Origin: a virus
Length of the DNA: 64,000 nucleotides
Strand: one strand, 5' to 3'
IMG/VR virus record: IMGVR_UViG_3300045789_000711
Location: 1-64,000 of that record
Position 1 is the stretch's first letter; each line of letters starts with the position of its first letter. Of this stretch, positions 3,001 to 42,822 are shown piece after piece. The translations under genes were made by a program, and so were the position numbers. The notes below the pieces were generated by a model. It was given only the letters and a program-made list of their open reading frames with translations, did no database searches and had not been told where the DNA came from.

Positions 3001-6000
3001 CGTCCACGATGTCGGGAATAGCAACGGTTTCAGACACGTCTTTAGCGGTCTTAAGGTTTACATGGCGGTGAAATAAGCTGCGCAAGCCGGATAGGTTTTT
3101 AAAGCCCACTAGCGCGGTTTTCATTTCTACTTCGCCCGATAGCTTCTGCACTGGCATTTCATCGGTTTCACCAAATACCCGCACAAAGTCGTCAACGTCA
3201 ACAATGCCTAACTGGCTCCACTGATCCGGTGTCATGACGTGAGATAGCATGTTAAAGATATCGGTCGGACTGTTTACGGTTGGTGTTGCTGATAGCAGCA
3301 CAACGCCACGGCCCCCGTTTTTCTCTTTAATCAATTGGCCTTTTAACGATAGGTCAACCGACACTTGAGCGCTGGCCTGTGTTGGCAGGTAAGCCAGTTT
3401 TGATGCTTCACGTCCCGCTTTGTAGCTGTTCCGGTAGTTATGGCCCTCGTCGATGATCACATTATCAAAGCCCATATCTTCAAAGTACGGCACGTCTTCG
3501 GCTTTCTTCGTTCCGGTATCGGCATATTTCTCTTTGAACTTGGCATTTTTAAGTGACTCGCGGTGCTTCTTAGCGTCAGCAACGTACTTACCGCCAAGCA
3601 TGCCAGCGTCAACCATTTTAGAAACGAACTCACCCACTGATTCAGGGCGCATAGGTATCGATGCGTACTGCTCTTTGGTCATAACAACCGTAGTGAAGTT
3701 TGAATGCGGGATCATGTTCAGTCGCGTTTTCACTTCTTTGCTTGAAAGCGCCTTAATTTTATCGCGTTGCATTGGTTGGTTAGTGTTGCGGTTTAGCTTC
3801 ACTTCGCCTTTTTCGTCAAGCACTGTTTCTTGCTCAACTTCGCCACCTTTTCCGATCACCGGTTCTACGCCAATAAATAAAATATTGCTCATGTTTTGGC
3901 GACCAAAAAACGCTTTGGACTCGTGATACCAGTTATCAATAACCGACTTAGGAACAACCAGTGCGGTACGACGTGCGCGGCCCAATTCAGTGTTATAAGC
4001 AATTAAACCTAAAGCCGTTGCTGTTTTACCTAGTCCGGTACCAAAACCGCAAATACCGCCGCCTGTTTCGCTTAAACGTCGGATTTCAGAGCATTGATAA
4101 TCAAAGTTAACGATTTCACCGGATGTGTTCTCAAGGCCAAGTGGTGCGCCTGAGTGTTCAATAGGGATAAAGCCATTAAACTTATCGTTATACAGGTTGG
4201 TGATTGGGTCGATGTCGTCGTGTTGACGGATCCAAATACCAAACTCGGCTTCTAGGTCTTTGATCCGGCTTTTGTAGGCCGATGCTGCTGCAGCGTCAGA
4301 GCTGCGCACGGGTAAGCCATTGAGGTAGTTTTCAATCTGGCGCTCAAACTGCTCATTTGTGCTGCTGCGCTTTTTGCCGTCACGTAATTGGTAGCCAGAA
4401 AATAGACCGTCATCGCCGTTGTATTCCTTATTATCAAATTGATTGCCTAATTCGTCCTCTTCAACGCGTGAGTATTCAAGCGATGAATAGCCGTTAGACT
4501 TTAAAAACTCAAGCACATAATTTCGTGGTACCCACTTTGCCGACATAGTGATGTCGATAGCGTCAACGTTCGTTCGCGTTCGTTTGCGTTCGATAGCGTC
4601 TAGCTGGGCTTGGTAGTTTTCCAAGATAGGTTTACTGGTTTCGTTGGCCATGGCAGCAAGTAAGCGCTCGCGGCCTGCAACGATGTTACCGCTAGTTGCA
4701 CGGTCAAGAGGGGCAAGCATGCCGTCAGGGGTGATAGCGATACCCTCAATGGCGGCTAGCTGTTCAAGTGTTTCAAGTGTTCCCGTGTAAACCTGCAAGA
4801 AGTCTTCAAGCGGTACGGGTACCAAGTCACGCACTGAAAACAAGTTAGCGACTGTTTGGGTTGCATCTTGTGGATCAAACGCAATGGTTTCACCTTTAAC
4901 GACTTCACCCTTTAGCAGTGCTGAGAACTCGCCATTTTTATCAAGTGATGCAGAAAAAGCATTCCAGTAATTAGCGTTGCGGCCAGTGAGTACAGTGAGT
5001 GATTTATTGTTGGCTGGGGTGCCATACTTTTGAGACTCGGCCAAGATAAGCGCACGGGCCTCGGCTAAAATCGTTTCGTCCGGCTCATCGCTATACTGCA
5101 GTGCTTGGATGCGCATACCAATGATAGAGCCACGGATCACTTGAGCCTTGTACTTATCATCAACGGTATTCGATAGCTTAATGAAATCACTGAGTAGCCC
5201 ACGGGTTAGGTAAGGGTAGTCGGTGTTGATGGCCATAAGCTGATCGTAAGACAGAGCTAAGGCACCTAGCGGGTTAGAAAGCATGCTATCAAGTGCGCCT
5301 AAGCTCGATGCACCGTAACGTTCAGCATTGATAGTGCCGTCGTCGTTTTCACGCTTAATCAGTTCCCAGTTACCGTTTACTAGTGACATCCAGCGGCCGT
5401 TAATCAGCTTTTCGTCACCCTCTGCATAAGTGATTGGTAGCGGTTCGGCTGCGTTCAGGCTGTCCCATTCGATGCGGGTTTCAAACTTGTGCGATAGCTT
5501 TTCTTTAAGTTGTAAGTTCGTTAGTGCGTTATTGTTGTTAACGACGAGCTTATTTTGAAAGCTTAAGCGTTCAGACTCGCCATGAACAAAGCGCTTGCCC
5601 TCGGCTACATCGAACCACTTACCACTAATGAACGTATCCCAAAGCACGTTAGCCGCTTTCAAATCAGCGTCTTTAAGTTTGGGTAGCTTCTGGGCCAAAT
5701 CGTCCGAGTGTTTACGCAAAAAGATAACGTCAGTCACAACGTCGGTACCGGAATCACTAAACACGCCTGATGGTAGTCGATGAGCGCCTAAGAACTCGGC
5801 TTTACGACTGATGAGGCGGCGCATTTTCTTGTTGTCTTTACCGCTTACAATGCGAGTAGGTACCACTAGGCCAATAAGGCCACCAGCTTTAACCTTATCA
5901 ATGACGCGCACGACAAAGTAATCAGCGATGTTAGTAAACTCTTTTGATGCTGGGTCAGAGTCCAATACAGCGGTTTCACCTCGGGCGGTACCAAATGGCA

Positions 6001-6658
6001 CGTTACCCACACAGCTATCAAACGTGCCGTCTTCGACTTCTGCAGCAAGCTTTTCAAAGGGCTGGTTAAGTACCATATCTTCTGGGTGAAGCAATTGGTT
6101 AACTGAGCTTGATGTCTGATCAATCTCACTGGCCGTCATGAGTACGCCTTGCGGCTTGCTCGCTTGGAATACGCCTGTGCCTGATGATGGCTCTAATCCA
6201 TTGCCACCAGTAAAGCCCATGGCTTTTAAGCCATCCCATACGCCCGATGCAATCTCGATAGGCGTGTAATACTCATGGATATGGCCACCTGTATTACTTA
6301 CTGTGTCGGTACCGCCAATGCCCGAGTAACGGCGCAATGTCTCGATGTCGCTTTCAGTAAGCAGGCTGTTGTCACCCTTAACACGTTCAATCACTTCGAT
6401 AGCAGCGGCGTTAGCCTCTTTTCTGAGTCGGTTTAATGACACGTTATCGACTTTATGCACCCCCATAATAGGCGCTTTATCTTCCGTGCTGGTGGCCGCT
6501 CCGGTGTCCGGTGCTTCGGGTTTTTCTGATGTATCCGGTGTGTCTATTGCTGGATCTGATGTGGCGGGTTCATTGAATGAGCTTTGCAGTATCGATTGGA
6601 TCTCGGCTGTCTGCTTTGCCCCCATAATTTTAGCGATAATTTCTCTGATTTCTAACAT
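1..6658 (-). CDS. darB: DarB-like anti-restriction protein (N6-adenine methyltransferase + SNF2-type helicase), >2219 aa, 3' end outside window
   Basis: Absent from ORF track because its stop lies outside the window. ATG at 6658 with GGAGG RBS. Motifs read in one frame: EYYTP, LEPSSGTG, VGNVPFG (MTase); GFGTGLGKT, IIDEGHN, LLSATP, QRNGRGAR (helicase). Divergent from portal as in P1. Confidence 0.92.
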   Translation of the reverse strand, partial: MLEIREIIAKIMGAKQTAEIQSILQSSFNEPATSDPAIDTPDTSEKPEAPDTGAATSTEDKAPIMGVHKVDNVSLNRLRKEANAAAIEVIERVKGDNSLLTESDIETLRRYSGIGGTDTVSNTGGHIHEYYTPIEIASGVWDGLKAMGFTGGNGLEPSSGTGVFQASKPQGVLMTASEIDQTSSSVNQLLHPEDMVLNQPFEKLAAEVEDGTFDSCVGNVPFGTARGETAVLDSDPASKEFTNIADYFVVRVIDKVKAGGLIGLVVPTRIVSGKDNKKMRRLISRKAEFLGAHRLPSGVFSDSGTDVVTDVIFLRKHSDDLAQKLPKLKDADLKAANVLWDTFISGKWFDVAEGKRFVHGESERLSFQNKLVVNNNNALTNLQLKEKLSHKFETRIEWDSLNAAEPLPITYAEGDEKLINGRWMSLVNGNWELIKRENDDGTINAERYGASSLGALDSMLSNPLGALALSYDQLMAINTDYPYLTRGLLSDFIKLSNTVDDKYKAQVIRGSIIGMRIQALQYSDEPDETILAEARALILAESQKYGTPANNKSLTVLTGRNANYWNAFSASLDKNGEFSALLKGEVVKGETIAFDPQDATQTVANLFSVRDLVPVPLEDFLQVYTGTLETLEQLAAIEGIAITPDGMLAPLDRATSGNIVAGRERLLAAMANETSKPILENYQAQLDAIERKRTRTNVDAIDITMSAKWVPRNYVLEFLKSNGYSSLEYSRVEEDELGNQFDNKEYNGDDGLFSGYQLRDGKKRSSTNEQFERQIENYLNGLPVRSSDAAAASAYKSRIKDLEAEFGIWIRQHDDIDPITNLYNDKFNGFIPIEHSGAPLGLENTSGEIVNFDYQCSEIRRLSETGGGICGFGTGLGKTATALGLIAYNTELGRARRTALVVPKSVIDNWYHESKAFFGRQNMSNILFIGVEPVIGKGGEVEQETVLDEKGEVKLNRNTNQPMQRDKIKALSSKEVKTRLNMIPHSNFTTVVMTKEQYASIPMRPESVGEFVSKMVDAGMLGGKYVADAKKHRESLKNAKFKEKYADTGTKKAEDVPYFEDMGFDNVIIDEGHNYRNSYKAGREASKLAYLPTQASAQVSVDLSLKGQLIKEKNGGRGVVLLSATPTVNSPTDIFNMLSHVMTPDQWSQLGIVDVDDFVRVFGETDEMPVQKLSGEVEMKTALVGFKNLSGLRSLFHRHVNLKTAKDVSETVAIPDIVDVEQECPMTDEQQAIYEELRVRAEELSKLTQADKELMLAQGIPVDSVFRIIREMDRVTTDIDLYNKQMTFVFPADKTEQVNKLVAALPATLNLKVKDDDKGDEDAETTALSIAHNAKVATSDSAVTLVVNQEFENEVMKLVEQFGIKSNEISHPITPKYARLIENLKAGLEDGKQIIFTEEKTQHNKLARIIVNHLGLEPNDIAIINADTVSGKDADNEQASLEKVALAYNEGRHKILIANKKAEVGVNLHHGTTDIHHLTLPWTPASIKQRNGRGARVGSSQKKVRAHYYVGKGSFDEFRLSSLKRKAEWMNELFTSDLDRMDNADASNNEEMSLLLAKDAGEREARIAANQQKALDKVRAAQTIRAKIDLNNYIKASHDGSANKEVVAKDLASANSQLSKALADIERVKGNLERYTTLSEDKESTMRNYYLSEAKDARKELVGLMAIASSQRSKQVALERLKTRIDNADAQLKRLRPTVKKAIETGLIGDIDLAVLDHGDKFIVFEGKTLAVGKQYEAADFSKHGGRTDLIYRINSIDFNFKTAKGELLYSSSSYGQTKLGKETDISLGSLRNETTIAQSEIDFKNALTDSIKTGSIKSLMTEEKFRWAIGKGLLTISAASIGNSYSSSKILLLRDGTGFAFVSANYEAVKKELSETLVYPDPDNETLKRDLSVWILADRKERTNSSGTAISFYEAILGNKWDANIEEHGKAASAAEISKWAKTTMDSYLATEKGTSDFDDMVKGQRTYDFSWVRFYGGKMPAEFDNWEAFKAAGGNQFEALKLVAEKKKAENEAIITKGVQAAYKQAEASNEDDKDKWARWVFDEVVKSGSDIVLDLLKADSFATGISADYWQGAALAVLEKLLDTNAGVSELVYGQFGSKVKELLMKTYADRDAISKVLNPVTPEPEVETSTEDTATVEAFRATLENEATKSNEAINSQDIFDGITIKLNSVEINQPSTKYQSRGRWRTNPARYFPVGDVIAIHDPQGKSGKLFSNK

Positions 6659-12013: not shown

Positions 12014-12024
12014 TGTTAGGATGT
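12014..12024 (-). promoter_or_regulatory. Putative C1 operator
   Basis: TGTTAGGATGT just upstream of the methylase gene. Confidence 0.75.
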
Positions 12025-12955: not shown

Positions 12956-13000
12956 TTTGTTAGGATGTAAATTCCACGGGATTAATTACATCCTAACAAA
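12956..13000. promoter_or_regulatory. Inverted pair of putative C1 operators
   Basis: TTTGTTAGGATGTAA-N15-TTACATCCTAACAAA, a perfect 15-bp inverted repeat. Confidence 0.8.
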
Positions 13001-16592: not shown

Positions 16593-16603
16593 ACATCCTA
16601 ACA
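16593..16603 (+). promoter_or_regulatory. Putative C1 operator
   Basis: ACATCCTAACA. Confidence 0.75.
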
Positions 16604-19972: not shown

Positions 19973-20324
19973 TTCTGAGTCAGCAAGGCGTCAACGTGCG
20001 ATGCGCGTTCGTGATAAGGCTCGTGGTATTAAGGGGCTAAAACTTCGCTGTACGACTGGGGAAAGCGCGCTTATTGATAATGTAAGCTTGGCTATGTCTC
20101 TTAAGCGTTCAGAAGCTTGTATGACGTTATTCTTTAATGAAGCCGAACGTCTAGGTATTGACACGTCACAGGTAAAGCCTGCAGCGGCAACCATTAGAAC
20201 ACCTAAAAATTCACCTGCACTAACGATACTCAATGAGCTATCGGAAGAGCTAGGCTTACCCGTATCAACGGTATTGCTGAATGCATTATCTGAATACAAA
20301 TCTTTATGTCAAAAAACATCCTAA
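19944..20324 (+). CDS. Hypothetical protein, possibly RHH-type DNA binding
   Basis: Basic N-terminal helix; C-terminal LNELSEELGLPVSTVLLNALSEY resembles RHH helices. Confidence 0.5.
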   Translation: MLFVKNPASDSESARRQRAMRVRDKARGIKGLKLRCTTGESALIDNVSLAMSLKRSEACMTLFFNEAERLGIDTSQVKPAAATIRTPKNSPALTILNELSEELGLPVSTVLLNALSEYKSLCQKTS

Positions 20325-20350
20325 CATCGTACTAAAAGGAAAACTTAAAA

Positions 20351-21214: not shown

Positions 21215-22270
21215 TTAAACCTTTTGAGTATGTAGTAGTTTGCGAACGCCGCGAACGATGGCCATTTCTGGCTGTTCCGGTATGTCGATAGTGTGGAACC
21301 AAGCTTGTGCGTGTTCTTGTAGCCAGTTAGCGCCGCCGCCAACAAACACTATGCGGGTTAACGTGCTTAGGTTTGAGTCTGTTAGCTTCATCATATCGCT
21401 GTAAACAAGGTCAGCAAGGTATTGAGCGGCCTCGTTAACCAAGTCTGACACGTCTATACGCGCCTTTACGGCACTTTCTTTGTTACTGGTAGATCCAATA
21501 TAGCCTAAATCGATAATGATTCGCAGATCTGAGTTTGAGAGCGCCTTGGTTGCGCCTAGGCCCAGTCTGTCAGCATTGCGATTAAGTAGCGTCTTGAAGT
21601 GTTCAAACATCTTGTGTACGCCGTTCTCACTCGTTGCGTAGTCGATAACTTCAAAGCCGCGACCAATAATCGCTAAATCATTTGAGAACTGGCCAAGGTC
21701 AATCACCAGCGTCTTAATGTCGTGTTCGTATTCTTCGTTAAATGAGCCGTTATCATCAATGGCCACGTAGACGTAAGCGGGTATGGCTTCTGGGAATACT
21801 AATATCTTATTAAGTATCGGCGCTGCAGTGGTGCCGTTGTAGCTGGTCACTGGTGAGTTAAGTGAAGCTTTCTTCTTTTCGATAAGGTCGGTATTGATTG
21901 GTGACTGACTATCGCCTTTGTTGTAGTAGTGGCTTGTCGGTACCGTGCAACCAATAATGATTTGTTGGCCATCAAGTCCGGCGTTGGCCAGTGTGTTGTT
22001 TACCAGTACGCGGTTAGCTTCTGATACTTGGTATTCACGGTAGCAAGTATCTTCTGGGTTAGATGATGCGTGTCGAACCGTATAAGCGTTGCCGCTTTCA
22101 CATACCCAAGCTGAATCGCTGATACCTGATAAGTCCATTAGTGCGCCTTTTTCGATGATAGACGGGTTATGGCCCTCGATAAGTGTGCCGTCTGGATCCA
22201 AAAATGAGTAAGCAATGTTTCCGGATCCATCATCAATTGCGACTAAAGGTATAAAATTTTCGTTGTTCAT
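21215..22270 (-). CDS. parM: Actin-like plasmid segregation ATPase ParM/StbA
   Basis: AIDDGSGN, FPEAIPA, VIDLGQFSND, FVGGGA. Confidence 0.9.
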   Translation of the reverse strand: MNNENFIPLVAIDDGSGNIAYSFLDPDGTLIEGHNPSIIEKGALMDLSGISDSAWVCESGNAYTVRHASSNPEDTCYREYQVSEANRVLVNNTLANAGLDGQQIIIGCTVPTSHYYNKGDSQSPINTDLIEKKKASLNSPVTSYNGTTAAPILNKILVFPEAIPAYVYVAIDDNGSFNEEYEHDIKTLVIDLGQFSNDLAIIGRGFEVIDYATSENGVHKMFEHFKTLLNRNADRLGLGATKALSNSDLRIIIDLGYIGSTSNKESAVKARIDVSDLVNEAAQYLADLVYSDMMKLTDSNLSTLTRIVFVGGGANWLQEHAQAWFHTIDIPEQPEMAIVRGVRKLLHTQKV

Positions 22271-22552: not shown

Positions 22553-22563
22553 TGTTAGGATGT
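22553..22563 (-). promoter_or_regulatory. Putative C1 operator before pacA
   Basis: TGTTAGGATGT, downstream of a TACGAT -10. Confidence 0.75.
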
Positions 22564-26562: not shown

Positions 26563-26573
26563 ACATCCTAACG
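26563..26573 (+). promoter_or_regulatory. Putative C1 operator upstream of c1 (autoregulation)
   Basis: ACATCCTAACG 29 bp from the c1 start. Confidence 0.75.
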
Positions 26574-27284: not shown

Positions 27285-27688
27285 TATCGTAATTGATCCG
27301 GTTAAGTTGATGATTCGCGCCTAAGCGCCCTCTAGCATTTGTTCCCCTAAAAAGGTGGTAATTGAAATTTGCGCTGACATCCTAACAGTATTTATTTTAA
27401 ATAAAAGCGCCAAAAAACCATCTACCAATAAATAATTATTCCTTGGTGAATATAGTTTTACCTCTTAATAGTCAGGTAAACCAACTCTATGCGCTTGTAA
27501 CCCGCTATTCGTCTGGACTAATACTAAATGATGTCTTTTTTTTGACGCGCCAATTAACTGATTAAGTATCGTTTTCGTTACTTTGTTAGGATAAATAAAT
27601 CTTGCTTACTTACCGTTTCGAGAGTATTTTTCCTTTTCCAGCATGAGGCTGGCACTTTTGGCAGAGTGAAATTAGGAGTAATCGGGTA

Positions 27689-30636: not shown

Positions 30637-30972
30637 GTGACAACTAAAACGCTTAAGGCCGCACCGGAACCCAAGTACAAAAAGCTCTATTCTGAGGCCA
30701 AGCGAACCATTGCCAGTCTTGAGCTTGAGATTGAGGTGTTAAAGGATAAGGTTTATCACATAAGCAATATGGTATTAAGCGGTACCGTTGGCGATGTGGC
30801 CATTCAAAGCGGTCAGCTTGAAATCTCTGTTCCCAAGCATGTGGCCCAGTGGATGATTGAATATCAGTTACCATGGCAAGTGTTCAGGTGTGAAGAGCAT
30901 GGCCTGTGGATAGATGAGCTGGATAGCAGCTTTCCCTATCACATGGAATGTAGCAAATGCCCCAAGTGTTAA
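30637..30972 (+). CDS. Hypothetical protein with C/H zinc motif
   Basis: CEEH ... CPKC. Confidence 0.6.
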   Translation: MTTKTLKAAPEPKYKKLYSEAKRTIASLELEIEVLKDKVYHISNMVLSGTVGDVAIQSGQLEISVPKHVAQWMIEYQLPWQVFRCEEHGLWIDELDSSFPYHMECSKCPKC

Positions 30973-30981
30973 ACCCATCAT

Positions 30982-31014
30982 AAAAAAGGGCGTTCCAATC
31001 GGAGCGCCCTTTTT
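30982..31014. terminator. Bidirectional terminator
   Basis: AAAAAAGGGCGTTCC-AATC-GGAGCGCCCTTTTT. Confidence 0.85.
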
Positions 31015-31023
31015 GTATCTGCC

Positions 31024-31332
31024 TTATTCGGCTTGTTCGTCCTGTTCGGCTCGCTTGGCGGTGATCTCGATACCCATTGCGCGGCCTTGCTCGGTCATCC
31101 GGTAAGAAAGCTTAAGCGATTTCATATCTCGTGAGCGCGCGATTAAGCCATGTTCTGCCAGTTTGTGCATAGATGCCCTAAACGATGAAGCAAACACGCT
31201 AGGGCTTCTAGCTTTGTTGATAAGGGCCAGTAATGCCACTGAGTCTATCGGCTTGGTAATGTCTCGGGCTTCAAGGGCCGTTAACAGGTAAAGCGTGTCA
31301 CTCTGCAGTGCTGATAATCTCATGTTAATCAT
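31024..31332 (-). CDS. Winged-helix DNA-binding protein
   Basis: RLSALQ..TL, FRASMHKLAEHGLI.R, YRMTEQGR. Confidence 0.75.
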   Translation of the reverse strand: MINMRLSALQSDTLYLLTALEARDITKPIDSVALLALINKARSPSVFASSFRASMHKLAEHGLIARSRDMKSLKLSYRMTEQGRAMGIEITAKRAEQDEQAE

Positions 31333-34324
31333 TGTTACCTGCCTTGATAGGTAGTGGCACGTTAAGCTCTGTATTGAGCAGCTTAATAAACGCTTTCTTG
31401 GTTTTTAATGTATCACTTTCACGTCTAAACATGGGTTCTGTACTCAACGGTGAATGACTTAGCGCCCGTTTTTGGCTGTAGATAAGGTGGTTTATGCTTT
31501 GCTTGGTTAAGCTGTCTGAATGCTCACCAAGGTATTGAGTGGCATCACCACGAGGATCAATGTCTTTAAAGTCCTTTAAGAATCTATCCCATCCAAGCAA
31601 TTCAAGCATGCTGTCGTTGATGTCATGCTCATAGGTTTTCTGGCTTATCTTGCTTAGGTTTGCAAACAGGAATGAGATTGCCCTTGGTAGGTTTATGCCA
31701 AAGCCTGAATACGATAGGTTGTCTTTGTGATCTGCACTGACTAGGTAAGCCGTGACACTTATGCCATAACCTACTTTGCTATTGGTTTGCTTGGTGTACT
31801 CATCCATTTCTTCTAGAGCATGGATCATTTCATTGATCGTTGTCATGATGGCTTCGTCTTTGTCTTCGTCGTCATCCATGGCGGTAACATGGCTTATCTG
31901 GTTAAGCATAAAGATAAGCTGCTGCTTGTTCTTACTGGCCATATTCCTTAGTGTCCGGTACTCGTTGCCGTTCAGTCTCTTTTCGCTAAGGTTAAAGCGC
32001 GCTAGTTCATCATGCAGCGCTTGGCTTACTGGGTAGGTTTGCACTTCTGAGCCGACAATCTCAGTGTTAGCTATGCTGCCATCAATGCCTAGCTGGTGGC
32101 ATGCAAAGAAAGGGGTAATGCTGTTATACATCTTAACGCCATAGCCGTTAATTAGGCGGCTAGAAGCAGCAATGATAAACACTTGAGCGCCTACCTTGCT
32201 CGCATACAGTGGGACATCACCCATTTCAACGATTAGCGCTGTAGCACGTTCGGTAGACGTCTTGTTAAAAGCCATCACCTTGTTATGGTTGTTCACTATG
32301 CTGGTGGCTGCAGCTTTAGCCTTAATTGGGCTAGTGCCGTCGTAATCTCGGTACCAGTCCATGATCATCATGTGCAAGTCGTCATCACTCATCATTGGGT
32401 AGTGTTCAACCAATATCGCTTTAATGTCAGCGGTTTGTGCCTGAATGGCCTTTATTGCCTGCCTAGCCTTAACTAAGAAGATCATAAGGTCATTACCAAA
32501 CAGTCTAGAGCGGTGAAGCTTTGAGTTGATAGCAGACTCAACGAACGACGGCTTAAGCGTCATAAGGTTAATGGCGCTTCGACTTCTGCAGGGGAACGCG
32601 CGAAAGTTCTTAGTGGTTGGTTTGGGCCAGTTCTTTTTAAGCTCAATCATGAGGATCGGTTCACCACTAAACAAAGTGATCCGGCCTAGGTTCAATGAGT
32701 CCACGCCAACAATGTAGCCTTGGCCTGCGGGTCTGCTTATTTCGTTGTCCGGCATATCCCAGTCAGAGCGGTAGTTCTCATCGTAATCAACTTTGAATGC
32801 GCTCGGTATGCATGACTGAGTAAAGAAATCTTTAGGTGAGTAAATCGCTATGTCACCTTTACTGAATAGCGGAAGCTCTGCAGCCTCTATAATCTCGATA
32901 GCAGGGCTTTTCTTGCCATCCCCTAGTAGATTGTCCTCGATATCAACAAAGGTGCAATTTTGCTTGATATAGGCCTCTTCTAACAACGACTTGCCTTGTG
33001 CTTCACGGGGGAAGTCACCAAACACAATCGCGCCGCCTGATAGTTGCCTATCTTTGACGCCTTGGAGTATGGCCACCAGCTTATGATAAGTGTCGCTCAT
33101 GGTCTTAAATTCGCGTTGCTTGTCTACTAGCTTGGTCGATCGTGAATAGACGTTATCAAAGAAATCATTCATTTCACTTTGAATAGGGAACAAACGGGCG
33201 TTATGTTCGACGGGTGAGTAAATGGCACTGATACGTTGGCCATCACGAACCATTAAGAAAGCGGCCTTGTTCATGCTGTTGCGTGTGGCCCATTGTGCAG
33301 CCGACATATCAGCGTAGTGCTTTTCTCTGCGAGTAGGTCTTATTGTGATAATGGCGCGTTCACTTGGAAATATGCGCTCTATCAATGATGGTGTTGCCTT
33401 AAGGTACTCAATGAAGAAATCAGCGTTAGAATAATCAAAGTCTTGGCTGTCTGTGTAAACCTCATTCACGGCTATCTCTTCATCCATGTAGACCATAGAT
33501 GAATACAAGCTAATCGGTTCGTTGCTGGTGGACACGTCGCCATCAATCAATGTCACTATCTCAACGTCTTCACCTAAGTAGTGCTTCATGATGTCGATTT
33601 TAATCATCACATTGCCTACTTTGCGTAGCATATCGTTAGACTTGCCCGTCATGGCCTTAGCGGTTTCCATCATAAGGCTGGTGGCCTTTTCAAGCGTGTT
33701 AGCCAGTTCTTTAGATTTAGATGCAGCCAGTTTGTTGGCCATGCGCCCTAACGTGGCTTGGTTCTCAAATCGTTTCTTGTGGTCTTGAACCACGCCCATG
33801 GTGCCTGCTTCCGGTATCAGCTCTTTGCTGCGTGAGCTGATTTGGTCGGGTGACGGTAGCCCAATAGCGCTATGTAGGTTTGCTTTCTCATCGGTCACAC
33901 TGCTGTCTTTGCTTTGTTCAAGCAATCTAAGCAGGGCGTTTGGATCGGTTAGTGCTAACTGGATGTCGGCTTGTATTGCTTCTGCGTCATGCTGCAGTGC
34001 GAGTAATTGCTGCTTTCTAATGGCCTCGGCTTCGCTCTTAGGTACTGGGGTGAAGTCACGGGTGAAACGTTCAAAGTCCAGTCTGATGCTTGAGCCTTGT
34101 GATATACGCTTGTTGGCATAGATCTCAACGGTCTGAATATCATTTGTAATTAGGTTTTCTAAAAGGTCAGTAATGATGTAGATTTCATTGCTAACTAATA
34201 GCGTTGTTCTTTCCTCGCTATCTTCGTTTACAGGGGTGTAGCGCCAATACTCACCGAACTCAAGCGATAGCAGGCGGTCTACGCGCTCACACTCGCTTTT
34301 AACGTCTTTACTGATGTTGCTCAT
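31325..34324 (-). CDS. Large hypothetical protein (999 aa)
   Basis: Long ORF with GGTAGG RBS, N-terminal coiled coil, YMDEE segment; coupled to the wHTH gene. Confidence 0.85.
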   Translation of the reverse strand: MSNISKDVKSECERVDRLLSLEFGEYWRYTPVNEDSEERTTLLVSNEIYIITDLLENLITNDIQTVEIYANKRISQGSSIRLDFERFTRDFTPVPKSEAEAIRKQQLLALQHDAEAIQADIQLALTDPNALLRLLEQSKDSSVTDEKANLHSAIGLPSPDQISSRSKELIPEAGTMGVVQDHKKRFENQATLGRMANKLAASKSKELANTLEKATSLMMETAKAMTGKSNDMLRKVGNVMIKIDIMKHYLGEDVEIVTLIDGDVSTSNEPISLYSSMVYMDEEIAVNEVYTDSQDFDYSNADFFIEYLKATPSLIERIFPSERAIITIRPTRREKHYADMSAAQWATRNSMNKAAFLMVRDGQRISAIYSPVEHNARLFPIQSEMNDFFDNVYSRSTKLVDKQREFKTMSDTYHKLVAILQGVKDRQLSGGAIVFGDFPREAQGKSLLEEAYIKQNCTFVDIEDNLLGDGKKSPAIEIIEAAELPLFSKGDIAIYSPKDFFTQSCIPSAFKVDYDENYRSDWDMPDNEISRPAGQGYIVGVDSLNLGRITLFSGEPILMIELKKNWPKPTTKNFRAFPCRSRSAINLMTLKPSFVESAINSKLHRSRLFGNDLMIFLVKARQAIKAIQAQTADIKAILVEHYPMMSDDDLHMMIMDWYRDYDGTSPIKAKAAATSIVNNHNKVMAFNKTSTERATALIVEMGDVPLYASKVGAQVFIIAASSRLINGYGVKMYNSITPFFACHQLGIDGSIANTEIVGSEVQTYPVSQALHDELARFNLSEKRLNGNEYRTLRNMASKNKQQLIFMLNQISHVTAMDDDEDKDEAIMTTINEMIHALEEMDEYTKQTNSKVGYGISVTAYLVSADHKDNLSYSGFGINLPRAISFLFANLSKISQKTYEHDINDSMLELLGWDRFLKDFKDIDPRGDATQYLGEHSDSLTKQSINHLIYSQKRALSHSPLSTEPMFRRESDTLKTKKAFIKLLNTELNVPLPIKAGNND

Positions 34325-34359
34325 TGATTACCTACCCGATTAAATGACTGCTGTTAATG

Positions 34360-34403
34360 TTGCCACGCAATGATAACGAATATCTGTAATTATTGCCACG
34401 CAA
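34360..34403 (-). promoter_or_regulatory. Promoter (TGGCAA-17-TATCAT) bracketed by two TTGCCACGCAA operators
   Basis: Identical 11-mers at 34360 and 34393, each TTGC-N3-GCAA. Confidence 0.7.
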
Positions 34404-34415
34404 GAATAAGGATGC

Positions 34416-34439
34416 AAAAAAGCCGCACGATGGCGGCTT
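34416..34439 (-). terminator. Intrinsic terminator of the dndB-like operon
   Basis: AAGCCGC-CATCGT-GCGGCTTTTTT on the minus strand. Confidence 0.8.
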
Positions 34440-34458: not shown

Positions 34459-34818
34459 CTACTGCGCGGCTTCGTAGTCGTCTAACATTTCATAGAAGTC
34501 TTGGTATAAGTCCATTTTGTCGCAGTTATCAAATAGCGTCTTAACATCTACCTTGTTCTGGGCCACCAGCAAGCGCGCATTGATGTTATCCGGCCCTACC
34601 ATACCCATGTAACCCGCACACGCAAACGGCTGGCCCTCTTTGCTCTTATGACACGCCATTATCGTAAAGTAGCCGTTCTGGTCGCTGCCTCTTGGCGGTA
34701 CCGTGTTGGCTAGGTTGCGCATTAGCTCAATGCTAAAGTTGGGTATGTCTTCGCCTGTGGTCGGGTTTGCTTTGATCCACGGGCATGACGCGCAAGGCTT
34801 GGTATCACACATTTTCAT
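34459..34818 (-). CDS. DUF6283-like Cys-rich protein
   Basis: PCASCPW ... MACH ... CAG. Confidence 0.7.
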   Translation of the reverse strand: MKMCDTKPCASCPWIKANPTTGEDIPNFSIELMRNLANTVPPRGSDQNGYFTIMACHKSKEGQPFACAGYMGMVGPDNINARLLVAQNKVDVKTLFDNCDKMDLYQDFYEMLDDYEAAQ

Positions 34819-34829
34819 GATGGCTATTC

Positions 34830-35219
34830 CTAAAACTTAATTTGTTCAACGTCGCACTGGTAAAGGTTGGCAAAGCTTAATAGCGCCTTGGCTCGCTTTG
34901 CGCCGTTCTTTTCAAAGATGGCTACTGATGATTGCTTGATGTCCAGCGCCTTGGCTGCTGCAGCCTGTGTCATGCCTCGGTGAATGCGCCAAGCGGCCAG
35001 TGGTGTAACGCCTTGCGCGCGAATGATGTCTATCACTTCTTGCGGCTGCTCAATGACTGGCGTGTTATCCGGCAAGCGGTCTATCTCAGCCATGGCACCG
35101 CGTAATTTATTCGCTAAGTGAGCAATCCCCAGTGACGTACAGTAGGCGTTAAAGGCCTCTACTTTGCTTATTTTGCCACTGGCTAGGTCGCCAGTGATGT
35201 GCGTGGGTAAGTGCTGCAT
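34830..35219 (-). CDS. XRE-family HTH protein (HigA-like)
   Basis: TPLAAWRIHRGMTQAAAAKALDIKQSSVA.FEK. Confidence 0.8.
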   Translation of the reverse strand: MQHLPTHITGDLASGKISKVEAFNAYCTSLGIAHLANKLRGAMAEIDRLPDNTPVIEQPQEVIDIIRAQGVTPLAAWRIHRGMTQAAAAKALDIKQSSVAIFEKNGAKRAKALLSFANLYQCDVEQIKF

Positions 35220-35229
35220 GAATAAACCT

Positions 35230-35418
35230 CTATGGTTCTGGGTAGTATTGATTATTGTAATAAGCGCCGTCCGGTACGTCGTAATGCGGCACTATCTCAC
35301 ACGGGCAGTCCCAGACATTCACAAAGTCAGCCTTTGCCGCCTCGGCGGCTTCTAGCGTGGCGAATGGCTTTGAATAGGTACTACAACCGCTTACCGTGAT
35401 TTGAAGCTTGTGTTTCAT
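35230..35418 (-). CDS. Hypothetical small protein
   Basis: 62 aa packed within the operon. Confidence 0.55.
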   Translation of the reverse strand: MKHKLQITVSGCSTYSKPFATLEAAEAAKADFVNVWDCPCEIVPHYDVPDGAYYNNQYYPEP

Positions 35419-35426
35419 AGTGGCCC

Positions 35427-36458
35427 TTATGCGCGGCTTCTAACAGCGCGAGTGATAACGGTTGCTGTCGCTTGGATAGAGGCCGGATTGTTGATCATCT
35501 TACCCGTCTCGCTCACACAAAAGTTAACCCACTTGTCACGACGCCAAAATGTGTCATTGCGTAGCTTATCAAACAATTCAGGCTTGATGTCGCGTGTGAT
35601 TGCAAAGTGGGCCAGTTCGGCCAGTGCCATAAGCGTGACATTGTGGCCCAGAACAAGCTCGGTTCTAAAGTCTTTGCCTGAGCCTGTAACGGTATAAGAG
35701 CGCATTAGGTAGCTGATGTTGATAGAAGAGAATAGCGTGTTGGTGTAGTTCTCAAGCACGGCTAACGCTTCGCCTTTGTCCTCAACAAAAGACATCACTT
35801 TAAGGGCGAACGCCTTAAGGGCTTTGATTGAGTAAATCTTGTCTGACTTACCGGACACGGCATTTTTCTCATACTCGATAGCATTACCAATCACTGAGCG
35901 CTTCATGATGTTAACGATTTCTTGGTCGCGTTCACTGCGGTCATTGTACGTCATACAGATAGCGGCCGATGGCTTGGCCTGAGTAAAGTTGATGTCATGG
36001 AACGCTTGTTGGCGCTGCTTAAGCGTGAGGTTATCAAATAGCATGATGCTTACCATTTGAGACGCAAAGTTAGCATCAACGTCGGCGCGCGCTAACAACT
36101 CTTTAATACCAGTTGCACGATGTTGGCCATCAAACAGCTTAACCAAAGCAGCCATAGGAATAGATAGCGTTCCGGTGTTTTCCATACCCGTAATAGGTGA
36201 GGCTGTGAACGTACACTCACTGCTAACGTGTCCAATCACCGGAGGGATGATGTAGAAGCCGTCTTTATTATCTTGGATGTAGTTAGCCACCTTTTTAGCG
36301 CGGATCTTGTTAACGATGCGCTGTGAACGCTCGTTAACGTCTTCGGCGTCGTCCAGTTTGAATAAGGCGGCAAGTGTTGAGAATGGGGCAATCGCTTGAT
36401 AGAAAACTCGACCGTTTTGCATGCCGCGTAAGGCTGGGATATTAAAACAATAGTTCAT
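35427..36458 (-). CDS. DndB-like DGQHR domain protein
   Basis: IPALRGMQ, RSQR.VN..RA, LFDGQHRATGI, QQAFHDIN. Confidence 0.85.
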   Translation of the reverse strand: MNYCFNIPALRGMQNGRVFYQAIAPFSTLAALFKLDDAEDVNERSQRIVNKIRAKKVANYIQDNKDGFYIIPPVIGHVSSECTFTASPITGMENTGTLSIPMAALVKLFDGQHRATGIKELLARADVDANFASQMVSIMLFDNLTLKQRQQAFHDINFTQAKPSAAICMTYNDRSERDQEIVNIMKRSVIGNAIEYEKNAVSGKSDKIYSIKALKAFALKVMSFVEDKGEALAVLENYTNTLFSSINISYLMRSYTVTGSGKDFRTELVLGHNVTLMALAELAHFAITRDIKPELFDKLRNDTFWRRDKWVNFCVSETGKMINNPASIQATATVITRAVRSRA

Positions 36459-42811: not shown

Positions 42812-42822
42812 ACATCCTAACA
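42812..42822 (+). promoter_or_regulatory. Putative C1 operator
   Basis: ACATCCTAACA. Confidence 0.75.

What the first reader, a model, noticed from the sequence alone, without database searches (positions are those of the whole stretch)
31024..34403. Self-contained two-gene module: 999-aa unknown protein plus wHTH with its own operators
Seen: the unit is insulated by terminators (30982 and 34416). It has a TGGCAA-17-TATCAT promoter bracketed by two identical TTGCCACGCAA sites and no C1 operator, and the wHTH gene overlaps the stop of the large gene. The large protein has an N-terminal coiled coil and a globular core (YMDEE, ERIFP, LMVRDG) with no motif I can name. Inference: an autoregulated accessory system that would burst on entry into a naive host (zygotic induction), as anti-defence or establishment functions do. 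A defence role is equally possible. It has no counterpart I recall in P1.
Basis: partly seen in the sequence, partly recalled or inferred. Interest (0 to 1): 0.7.

Follow-up and report, generated by a model that had tools for sequence, protein, structure and literature searches.

The report
Self-repressed operon carrying unknown giant protein
A phage that lives as a plasmid carries a two-gene unit in which a small DNA-binding protein most likely switches off its own promoter, and that promoter also drives a 999-residue protein from a very large, never-characterised family of plasmid and phage proteins whose predicted core matches no known fold.

Summary
On the minus strand, a sigma-70-type promoter carrying two exact TTGCGTGGCAA cores drives a 999-aa gene and a coupled ~100-aa winged-helix gene. 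Terminators lie on both sides.

The 11-mers are the centres of 25-29-bp operator units. All 7 promoters of wHTH homologues that I examined carry palindromes of the same design. One of them matches the window's distal operator at 20 of 25 bases. Autorepression is therefore well supported by comparison.

The 999-aa protein belongs to a huge unnamed family: 1,334 clusters, and 1,238 of 72,556 plasmid records, including IncHI1 R27 and IncHI2. It also occurs in a few large phages. It has no Pfam, PHROG, NCBIfam, PADLOC or PDB-sequence match. The AlphaFold models are confident (pLDDT 86-89), yet the conserved core has no structural neighbour above Z 3.4.

The two families are not co-conserved beyond near relatives, so the wHTH is a portable regulator, not an obligate partner. 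The biochemical function remains unknown. An entry or establishment role is my best guess, and the evidence for it is weak.

This scan met the same family before on IncHI plasmid DNA (e1-114850, e1-114902, e1-1955405) and reached the same "unknown family" verdict. New here are the phage-plasmid member and its regulatory cassette.

The parts
34420..34439 (-). Intrinsic terminator of the upstream DUF6283 gene. It insulates the module's promoter from read-through.
   Evidence: 7-pair stem followed by a U-run; -11 kcal/mol, z -2.6.
34384..34412 (-). Distal operator unit O1. Its core TTGCGTGGCAA lies at 34393-34403, and the last 6 nt of that core are the -35 hexamer TGGCAA (34393-34398).
   Evidence: The 25 bases 34410-34386 match the own-promoter operator of the Shewanella pSBAL11701 wHTH homologue at 20 of 25 positions.
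34351..34379 (-). Proximal operator unit O2. Its core lies at 34360-34370, abuts the -10 hexamer TATCAT (34370-34375) and covers the expected transcription start.
   Evidence: The start site is inferred, not mapped.
31325..34324 (-). 999-aa protein of a large uncharacterised family of mobile elements. Predicted layout: SH3-like barrel 26-94, helical hairpin 96-250, conserved alpha/beta core about 255-480, small SH3/Tudor-like barrel about 484-589, and a fast-diverging C-terminal third.
31024..31332 (-). wHTH repressor gene: 102 aa from the first ATG, or 99 aa from the ATG at 31323 that matches the start of its homologues.
   Evidence: phrog_19460, E 9.1e-16. Weak PaaX and HxlR matches. Profile search against the PDB gives a best E of 0.053, to MarR-type regulators. 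Alignment.
30983..31014 (.). Bidirectional intrinsic terminator shared with the convergent + strand gene 30637..30972.
   Evidence: -19.1 kcal/mol on the minus strand and -23.4 kcal/mol on the plus strand, each followed by a U-run.

Best explanation
The locus is a self-repressed cargo operon of a P1-style phage-plasmid.

Regulation. Dimers of the ~100-aa winged-helix protein bind two roughly 25-bp imperfect palindromes. O1 covers the -35 hexamer. O2 abuts the -10 hexamer and covers the transcription start. Together they would keep RNA polymerase off the promoter. The repressor is the last gene of the transcript and is translationally coupled to the first, so both proteins are made in a fixed ratio. 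The operon should fire in a repressor-free cell, that is on entry, and then settle to a low set-point that does not depend on copy number or on the phage's master repressor.

Cargo. The cargo is a 999-aa member of a very large, unnamed family found on big conjugative plasmids (IncHI1 and IncHI2 among them), on other megaplasmids and in a few large phages. The N-terminal two thirds are conserved and carry invariant acidic, Arg and Asn residues (D281-E282-E283, D297, R323, N352, R360, R605). That pattern suggests an enzyme or a phosphate/nucleic-acid-binding site. The predicted fold of this part has no solved relative. The C-terminal third evolves fast.

Role. I propose that the protein works alone and serves the incoming replicon early after entry, either in establishment or in countering a host barrier.

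What is shown: the gene structure, the sites, the family sizes, the absence of known domains or folds, and the comparative operator footprint. What is inferred: that the wHTH binds the sites, the pulse kinetics, and the role of the large protein.

My confidence is about 0.8 for the regulatory part and about 0.3-0.35 for the establishment role. The figure given is for the whole statement.
For: Architecture.

Operator footprint. All 7 of 7 promoters of wHTH homologues carry 23-25-bp palindromes of one design, with outer arms CTTAWT...AWTAAG. At arm 8 with at most 1 mismatch, 4 of 7 have two copies and 3 of 7 have one. Shuffled controls give 0.3-1.05 palindrome calls, against 1-14 observed. The pSBAL11701 operator matches window O1 at 20 of 25 bases.

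Near relative. In a 99.2%-identical contig, none of the 28 listed differences (of 29) falls in 34344-34412.

Other promoters of the large family. In 2 of 3 metagenome loci with a 43%-identical homologue, a different 16-bp perfect palindrome sits between the -35-like and -10-like hexamers. The control logic recurs with another operator.

wHTH fold class. phrog_19460. 8 of the 10 PDB rows are MarR-type regulators, all below significance.

Cargo family.
- 1,334 cluster representatives at E<=1e-3.
- 1,238 plasmid records, 1,083 of them conjugative.
- The profile matches the R27 protein over positions 9-971 of 986.
- Invariant residues.

Selection. 19 synonymous against 6 non-synonymous changes versus the near relative. 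All 9 changes in residues 13-721 are synonymous.

Contexts compatible with entry or establishment regions.
- An orphan DNA methyltransferase lies directly upstream in a K. pneumoniae MOBH plasmid.
- umuDC lies two genes upstream in R27 and IncHI2.
- Long one-directional arrays of small ORFs surround the gene in Xanthomonas and Klebsiella plasmids.
- Passages of PMC11541004 describe leading-region islands rich in orphan methyltransferases and often bounded by umuCD.

No master-repressor-type motif lies at the promoter.
Against: - No binding experiment exists. Operator assignment rests on comparison alone.
- No tool gives the large protein any function.
- In R27 the gene lies beyond umuDC as seen from the presumed oriT region near mobI. 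According to the passages read, umuDC marks the far boundary of leading-region islands. trhH and a traG-like gene lie in between. The 'leading region' context is therefore not established.
- The family also occurs in phages of 150-309 kb and in a non-mobilizable plasmid. That fits a general DNA-handling role as well as it fits establishment.
- The second core, O2, has poorer outer symmetry than O1 (my reading).
Confidence: 0.4

Rival explanations
1. Defence or exclusion. In the plasmid-prophage state, the large protein senses and blocks competing phages or plasmids. The conserved N-terminal part would be the effector and the variable C-terminal third the sensor. The wHTH keeps its dose low.
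For: - It is expressed from a sigma-70-type promoter that carries none of the window's over-represented ACATCCTAAC motif, so it is probably active in the lysogen.
- The C-terminal third diverges fast while the core is conserved.
- It sits in an accessory region next to a DndB-like operon.
- Large plasmids often carry defence genes (general knowledge).
Against: - No PADLOC match for the large protein at E<=0.1.
- No nuclease, NTPase, TIR, Sir2 or similar domain in the window protein or in 41 diverse members.
- The family also occurs in large phages among replication-type genes.
- It is a backbone gene of IncHI plasmids and is not seen in islands of known defence genes in the 9 contexts read.
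Confidence: 0.25
2. Replicon maintenance or DNA handling. The large protein would act in segregation, nucleoid tethering, replication or repair of large extrachromosomal DNA. The wHTH would double as a site-specific DNA adaptor.
For: - All 11 replicons read that carry the family are at least about 80 kb: the window's own record plus 10 others.
- Helicase genes are neighbours in Flavobacterium phage MaF61 and in the Rhodoferax plasmid. umuDC is a neighbour in IncHI plasmids.
- The predicted structure has a long helical hairpin and two small SH3/Tudor-like barrels.
- The annotation pipeline labels wHTH homologues 'chromosome segregation protein ParM'. One paper treats an IncA/IncC gene called stbA as a maintenance gene (passages of PMC9709138). 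I did not verify that this stbA is the same gene.
Against: - The window already has ParM-type and ParA-type partition genes.
- There is no NTPase motif or fold.
- Only two operator copies sit at a promoter. There is no centromere-like array.
- The 'ParM' label cannot describe a 97-aa protein.
- The wHTH is absent from 8 of 9 other records that carry the large family.
Confidence: 0.2
3. A toxin-antitoxin-like addiction pair. The large protein is toxic and the coupled wHTH both neutralises it and represses the operon.
For: - The genes are coupled or overlapping and share an autoregulated promoter.
- In Aeromonas plasmid pBY3 a wHTH homologue overlaps a RhuM/Fic/DOC gene. In Aeromonas phage 59.1 a homologue overlaps a 277-aa unknown gene.
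Against: - The large family stands without any wHTH-family gene in 8 of 9 other records, so it is not generally toxic.
- The wHTH family is stand-alone on IncC plasmids.
- The gene order, large protein first, and the size are unusual for type II pairs.
Confidence: 0.1
4. A very divergent Argonaute-like (pPIWI-RE) nucleic-acid-guided protein.
For: In the protein-language-model search the nearest named clusters are pPIWI_RE. The score is 0.89 with 181 shared features for the whole protein, and 0.85 with 143 for residues 245-612. Ago MID/PAZ clusters appear lower in the list. The tool itself rates scores under 0.9 as leads only.
Against: - No Pfam match to PF13032, PF13111 or PF18157 in the window protein at E<=0.1.
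- None among the 25 of 34 families listed for 41 members at E<=10.
- No Argonaute or PIWI chain among the rows listed by Foldseek or VIA for either model.
- There are no invariant acidic residues in the C-terminal half, where a PIWI domain would lie.
Confidence: 0.03

Closest known systems
1111-aa hypothetical protein of IncHI1 plasmid R27 (WP_181406559.1) and its IncHI2 counterpart (AVE23893.1)
   Same: Same protein family over the full length: the profile built from the window protein's relatives matches R27 over positions 9-971 of 986, E 1.6e-287. It shares the invariant residues and, like the window protein, has no Pfam domain.
   Different: About 25% identity, detectable pairwise only in the N-terminal half. 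No wHTH gene adjacent or elsewhere on the plasmid. It sits after umuDC and two small ORFs. Its function is equally unknown.
97-100-aa plasmid and phage proteins labelled 'chromosome segregation protein ParM' (e.g. WP_071681628.1 on IncC plasmids); phrog_19460
   Same: Homologues of the window's wHTH at 39-49% identity over nearly the full length. Each stands behind palindromic operators of the same design.
   Different: They are stand-alone on IncC plasmids. Elsewhere they precede other cargo: a RhuM/Fic/DOC gene on pBY3 and a 277-aa unknown gene in Aeromonas phage 59.1. In the window the cargo lies between the promoter and the wHTH gene. The 'ParM' label does not fit a protein of about 100 aa. 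The window's real actin-like ParM is at 21215..22270.
StbA of plasmid R388, a small HTH protein that represses several promoters and serves segregation
   Same: Works alike in outline. It is a small plasmid HTH protein that represses its own promoter and other promoters through repeated sites, including leading-region genes such as ardC (passages of bioRxiv 10.1101/2022.04.29.490116).
   Different: StbA sites are 9-bp direct repeats with an 11-bp period, arranged in arrays. The window has two palindromes 33 bp apart. No StbA chain appeared among the 10 PDB rows for the wHTH profile at E<=10. The paper reports that StbA lacks the wing.
MarR-type winged-helix repressors
   Same: They give the best, though sub-threshold, profile matches over the recognition helix and wing: E 0.053-0.97 in 8 of the 10 rows. 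They act as dimers on palindromes that overlap promoters (general knowledge).
   Different: The wHTH has about 100 aa, against about 145 for MarR proteins. The matches are not significant. No ligand-binding or dimerisation domain is evident.
pPIWI-RE / prokaryotic Argonaute-like proteins; KwaB (DUF4868) of Kiwa
   Same: Similar size. pPIWI-RE is the nearest named cluster in the language-model search.
   Different: I found no sequence, profile or fold support for either.

Membership tests
Unnamed large family of mobile-element proteins (R27 WP_181406559 type) | Full-length homology to family members | tested here: met
   phmmer found 1,334 representatives at E<=1e-3 and 32 at E<=1e-30. The profile with the window protein as first row matches R27 over 9-971 of 986 positions and the Aliivibrio protein over 1-944.
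Unnamed large family of mobile-element proteins (R27 WP_181406559 type) | Invariant core residues R103, E220, E283, D297, R323, N352, G362, P380, G422, G436 and R605 | tested here: met
   All are present in the window protein. They are invariant in 75 sequences, and the core subset is invariant in 102 sequences. They recur in 41 other members.
wHTH family phrog_19460 (labelled 'ParM' on plasmids) | Profile match over the full length | tested here: met
   E 9.1e-16, residues 16-101 against profile positions 2-86 of 88. 330 of 337 plasmid hits cover at least 80% of the query.
wHTH family phrog_19460 (labelled 'ParM' on plasmids) | Palindromic operators of the CTTAWT...AWTAAG design at the promoter that drives the gene | tested here: met
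   Found in 7 of 7 homologue promoters. Window O1 matches the pSBAL11701 operator at 20 of 25 bases. Binding itself was not tested.
Actin-like ParM (the label given to homologues of the wHTH) | Actin/ParM ATPase fold of roughly 320 aa | tested here: not met
   The protein has 99-102 aa and only weak wHTH matches. A true ParM-type protein lies elsewhere in the window at 21215..22270 (phrog_691, E 3.2e-32).
MarR-family winged-helix regulators | Significant sequence or profile match to the MarR wHTH | tested here: inconclusive
   Best E is 0.053. 8 of the 10 rows are MarR-type, but all are below significance.
pPIWI-RE (PF13111, PF18157, PF13032) | Match to the family's Pfam models | tested here: not met
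   No match in the window protein at E<=0.1. None among the 25 of 34 families listed for 41 members at E<=10.
pPIWI-RE (PF13111, PF18157, PF13032) | MID (Rossmann-like) and PIWI (RNase H-like) folds | tested here: inconclusive
   No Argonaute chain appears in the listed rows. The C-terminal 390 residues were never searched as a separate model.
KwaB / DUF4868 (Kiwa) | Sequence or fold match to KwaB | tested here: inconclusive
   No Pfam match at E<=0.1. The family profile against PDB sequences gives only a designed protein, at E 0.12. No KwaB chain appears among the listed fold rows.
Type II toxin-antitoxin pair | Toxicity of one partner, neutralised by direct binding of the other | not testable with these tools
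   Only gene coupling and autoregulation are visible. The large family usually stands without the wHTH.
Leading-region anti-defence genes of conjugative plasmids | Position between oriT and the umuCD boundary on the first-transferred side | tested here: inconclusive
   In R27 the homologue lies just beyond umuDC, as seen from the mobI/relaxase region. The direction of transfer was not determined. The window's element is not conjugative.

The most novel reading that the evidence does not exclude
The 999-aa protein is the founding example of a new enzyme class with a fold not yet seen in solved structures. Large mobile elements (IncHI resistance plasmids, megaplasmids, phage-plasmids and some phages of 150-309 kb) would use it in the first minutes after entering a cell to disarm or bypass a host barrier. 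The fast-evolving C-terminal third would track the host target. The wHTH-controlled pulse in this phage-plasmid would be the first visible regulatory signature of that role.
Probability: 0.2. Interest if true: 0.8.

Novelty: categorically new. Interest (0 to 1): 0.55.

Why it matters
The large protein's family sits on about 1.7% of all sequenced plasmids in PLSDB (1,238 of 72,556). These include the IncHI1 and IncHI2 backbones that spread multidrug resistance. Every record I read calls it 'hypothetical protein', and no domain library or solved structure explains it.

A confident structure prediction with no structural neighbour suggests unexplored biochemistry. The phage-plasmid copy adds something the plasmid copies lack: a compact, self-contained regulatory cassette with a promoter, two operators and a repressor. 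That cassette makes expression experimentally controllable. It also suggests when the protein is needed: on entry, then at a low constant level.

The operator grammar of the wHTH family is widespread and mislabelled. It occurs on 337 plasmid records, IncC among them, and can now be read directly from sequence.

Tried and rejected
Domain and sequence libraries gave nothing for the large protein:
- Pfam, PHROGs, PADLOC, NCBIfam and PDB sequences with the single protein.
- PDB sequences with the 75-sequence profile.
- Pfam on 41 diverse members: one PAS_5 hit at E 6e-4 in a single member, which I take as chance.

Fold searches:
- Whole model with Foldseek against the PDB: best E 0.26.
- Whole model with VIA wide: only coiled-coil-type rows (Z up to 6.0) and FeoA-like SH3 rows (Z 5.5).
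- Core model (residues 245-612) with Foldseek against the PDB: best E 0.069.
- Core model with VIA wide: best Z 3.4, and 0 of 48,161 chains at Z>=5. The rows cover only the small barrel.
- BFVD: one uncharacterised phage protein.
- The C-terminal 390 residues were never folded or searched alone, so I claim nothing about their fold.

Fused forms: the search for longer proteins found none, but the tool calls that weak evidence. The word-indexed homologue searches found only 5 and 7 relatives, against 1,334 by full phmmer.

Neighbourhood surveys that failed:
- The search for related loci in genome contigs found nothing.
- The search for related loci in viral contigs found nothing.
- Metagenome contigs gave only three N-terminal fragments with no downstream DNA.
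- Nucleotide searches of 18 kb around the module found no related phage. In plasmids they found only a 58-nt dndB match.

I therefore could not see what follows the gene in the 47-50% identical homologues.

Other points:
- The language-model lead to pPIWI-RE was followed and not corroborated.
- The P1 C1-operator consensus gave 0 matches in the window, which is uninformative.
- Literature: five answered searches turned up no paper on the large family. None of them was aimed at that family. I therefore do not claim it is absent from print, only that every record read labels it hypothetical.
The supplementary tables of PMC11541004, which list leading-region gene families, might include this family.
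- X2 and X12 cover the stretch only in pieces. I make no claim about their gaps.

Full report
WHAT IS THERE. The window belongs to an 80,932-bp virus record with direct terminal repeats, rated 100% complete. It encodes a tail sheath, tail proteins and a terminase together with ParM-type and ParA-type partition proteins. It is therefore a phage-plasmid of the P1 lifestyle, although no phage record is close to the module or to the 18 kb around it at the nucleotide level.

The finding lies on the minus strand. A 999-aa ORF occupies 31325..34324 and a 102-aa ORF occupies 31024..31332, overlapping it by 8 nt. All seven aligned homologues of the small protein start M-R-(L/I/V)-S. That corresponds to the window's second ATG at 31323 and would give stop-C-start instead of an overlap. 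Either way the two reading frames are coupled.

Upstream lies the terminator of the preceding DUF6283 gene at 34420-34439. Downstream lies a hairpin at about 30983-31014 that terminates both strands. The pattern scan had missed it.

PROMOTER AND OPERATORS. On the minus strand the promoter is TGGCAA-17-TATCAT. The scan lists the same site as 9 of 12. TTGCGTGGCAA occurs exactly twice in the 64 kb, at 34393-34403 and 34360-34370. Relaxed to 2 mismatches the motif is no more frequent than chance, with 25 matches against 26 expected. The signal is therefore the exact adjacent pair.

The first copy contains the -35 hexamer. The second abuts the -10 hexamer and covers the expected start site. The copies are the centres of two 29-nt direct-repeat units, 79% alike and 33 nt apart. 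Each 11-mer is itself a TTGC-N3-GCAA palindrome, with further imperfect symmetry outside it (my reading; one search detects O1 as a 19-nt palindrome with one mismatch).

The window's over-represented ACATCCTAAC motif has 16 matches against 3.0 expected. It is probably the element's master-repressor site, and it is absent from this promoter. A P1 operator consensus that I recalled matches nowhere in the window and so tests nothing.

WHO BINDS THE SITES. The small protein matches phrog_19460 (unknown function, E 9.1e-16). It matches PaaX and HxlR winged-helix models only weakly. A profile of eight family members finds MarR-type regulators in 8 of the 10 PDB rows, all below significance, with best E 0.053.

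tblastn finds homologues on 337 of 72,556 plasmid records, 308 of them conjugative, and in 4 Aeromonas phages. NCBI's pipeline labels many of them 'chromosome segregation protein ParM'. A protein of about 97 aa cannot be that.

I read the 160 nt in front of seven homologues:
- two IncC plasmids
- Shewanella pSBAL11701
- an IncX6 plasmid
- a Serratia plasmid
- Aeromonas plasmid pBY3
- Aeromonas phage 59.1

All 7 of 7 carry 23-25-bp palindromes of one design, with outer arms CTTAWT...AWTAAG. By a strict script, 4 of 7 have two copies and 3 of 7 have one, with a visibly degenerate second copy. Shuffled controls give 0.3-1.05 calls. The distal operator of pSBAL11701, whose protein is 48.5% identical to the window's, matches the window's O1 at 20 of 25 bases, including TTGCGTG. 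This is comparative evidence, not a binding test, but it makes autorepression by the wHTH the clear reading.

THE PAIR IS NOT A CONSERVED PAIR.
- In IncC plasmids the wHTH gene stands alone behind its operators.
- In pBY3 it overlaps a downstream RhuM/Fic/DOC gene. In phage 59.1 it overlaps a 277-aa unknown gene.
- None of 3 wHTH-bearing plasmids has a relative of the large protein.
- Of 9 records with a relative of the large protein, only 1 has any wHTH-family match, at 27% identity and about 130 kb away.
- The nearest plasmid homologue of the large protein (Aliivibrio wodanis pAWOD_2, 29% identity) is followed directly by a wHTH of a different family (HTH_43, PF09904, E 1.1e-12) with no BLASTP similarity to the window's.
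- In 2 of 3 marine metagenome fragments with a 43%-identical homologue, the promoter holds a different 16-bp perfect palindrome between the hexamers.

Tight repression of this gene therefore recurs in its closer clade, with interchangeable regulators. The wHTH plus its operators is a portable cassette.

THE LARGE PROTEIN. No Pfam, PHROG, PADLOC, NCBIfam or PDB-sequence match was found. A full phmmer scan of 1.84 billion cluster representatives finds 1,334 relatives at E<=1e-3, 612 at E<=1e-10 and 32 at E<=1e-30. Most of the 150 listed are 950-1,175 aa long.

tblastn finds the family on 1,238 plasmid records, 1,083 of them conjugative, mostly Klebsiella, Enterobacter, Escherichia, Citrobacter and Salmonella. 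Among them are IncHI1 R27 and an IncHI2 plasmid. It also finds 3 phages of 150-309 kb. 41 diverse members have no real Pfam domain.

Pairwise similarity is mostly confined to residues 1-540. The family profile nevertheless aligns R27 over nearly its whole length. Conservation peaks at residues 200-500 and falls steadily toward the C-terminus. The invariant residues are R103, E220, E283, D297, R323, N352, G362, P380, G422, G436 and R605.

AlphaFold2 with these alignments gives confident models: whole protein pLDDT 85.8 and pTM 0.75; residues 245-612 pLDDT 88.8 and pTM 0.84. The predicted layout is:
- an SH3-like barrel at 26-94, FeoA-like at Z 5.5
- a long helical hairpin at 96-250
- an alpha/beta core
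- a second small SH3/Tudor-like barrel (Z about 3)
- mixed helical and beta domains after that

Foldseek finds nothing significant in the PDB for either model. An exhaustive alignment of the core model to 48,161 representative chains gives a best Z of 3.4 and no chain at Z>=5. The tool's own benchmark says models without a clear Foldseek match typically reach Z 7-8. BFVD returns one uncharacterised phage protein.

The language-model search points to pPIWI-RE and Argonaute-type clusters at lead-level scores. Neither HMMs nor fold lists back this. The C-terminal 390 residues were not searched alone.

SELECTION AND OCCURRENCE. The stretch, or parts of it, is held by 20 listed public runs. Four hold half or more of its sampled words, and one of those may be the source sample. 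The labels are ice metagenomes, food metagenomes and coded isolates.

An 8,444-nt contig of a food metagenome (X4) spans all 3,601 bases with 29 differences. Of the 28 listed, 19 are synonymous, 6 are non-synonymous and 3 are intergenic. All 9 changes in residues 13-721 are synonymous. Five of the six amino-acid changes lie in residues 722-915. None of the listed differences touches 34344-34412.

An isolate (X5, 'organism A') carries both genes at roughly 92-98% identity. It has a compensated +1/-1 indel pair in the large gene and 1,021 extra bases at the 3' end of the wHTH gene. Both genes are thus under purifying selection, and the module is mosaic.

CONTEXTS OF RELATIVES.
- R27 and IncHI2: umuDC, two small ORFs, then the large gene.
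- A K. pneumoniae MOBH plasmid: an orphan DNA methyltransferase directly upstream and RepB nearby.
- Rhodoferax plasmid: VRR-NUC and a DEAD/DEAH helicase upstream, a Gp37/Gp68-family gene downstream.
- Xanthomonas and Klebsiella plasmids: long one-directional arrays of small ORFs.
- Phage MaF61: between a helicase gene and the tail sheath gene. Phage Tunturi_5: among small ORFs, with an RNA ligase gene a few genes away.

No neighbour is constant, so the protein most likely acts alone. Passages of PMC11541004 say that leading-region anti-defence islands are rich in orphan methyltransferases and are often bounded by umuCD. In R27 the gene lies just outside that boundary. The hint is suggestive, not firm.

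HOW IT MOST LIKELY WORKS. Shown: an insulated operon, and a promoter overlapped by two operators of the wHTH family's own design. Inferred: the wHTH represses the promoter. The repressor is distal and coupled, so expression bursts in a repressor-free cell and then holds a low set-point, independent of the phage's main immunity.

For the cargo I commit, at about 0.3-0.35, to an early establishment or counter-barrier role carried out by an enzyme-like conserved core. The rivals are defence or exclusion (0.25), DNA maintenance or handling (0.2), a toxin-antitoxin-like pair (0.1) and an Argonaute-like protein (0.03).

COMPARISON, NOVELTY, VERDICT. The regulatory cassette is an ordinary kind of thing, a self-repressed promoter, although its family and operator grammar appear undescribed. 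The large protein is a member of a family that is abundant but uncharacterised, and it passes no membership test for any characterised family. On that basis I rate the family as lying outside known kinds, and I stress that its function is unknown.

This scan met the IncHI members before (e1-114850, e1-114902, e1-1955405) and reached the same verdict. My searches reproduce that independently. They add the phage-plasmid member, the regulator and the operators. Interest: 0.55.

Noticed in passing
window, 16 sites, e.g. 12015-12024, 12959-12968, 12988-12997, 16593-16602, 20316-20325, 22554-22563, 26563-26572, 27377-27386, 42812-42821: ACATCCTAAC occurs 16 times with at most 1 mismatch (10 exact) against 3.0 expected. 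It is probably the operator set of the element's master repressor. None lies at the module's promoter.
   Followed up: partly
window 34459-36458 (-): The neighbouring operon encodes a DndB-like protein (PF14072, E 8.7e-55), a 62-aa ORF, an XRE-type HTH protein and a DUF6283 protein (E 6.1e-13). No other dnd genes were seen in the calls I made.
   Followed up: no
L019 (Aeromonas salmonicida pBY3) 1501-2782; L020 (Aeromonas phage 59.1) 3007-4132: Homologues of the wHTH overlap a downstream RhuM/Fic/DOC gene (pBY3) or a 277-aa unknown gene (phage 59.1). The regulator cassette seems to carry varied cargo.
   Followed up: partly
L004 and L017 (IncC plasmids), about 90 nt upstream of the wHTH homologue: The two operator palindromes flank a perfect terminator-like hairpin (TAAGGCTCC...GGAGCCTTA) that follows the HU-like gene. 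The 97-aa product is labelled 'chromosome segregation protein ParM', which looks like a misnomer.
   Followed up: no
window 31030-31035, as seen in coded run X5: An isolate's version of the module has 1,021 extra bases at the 3' end of the wHTH gene and a diverged 73-nt patch at 31882-31956. The inserted sequence itself was not available.
   Followed up: no
L009 660-720; L010 700-740: Two marine metagenome homologues of the large gene (43% identity) share the 16-bp perfect palindrome AATCGGACGTCCGATT between their -35-like and -10-like hexamers. L009 has a second 16-bp palindrome just upstream.
   Followed up: partly
window 2-6658 (-): A 2,219-aa ORF runs off the start of the window. It was not analysed.
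   Followed up: no
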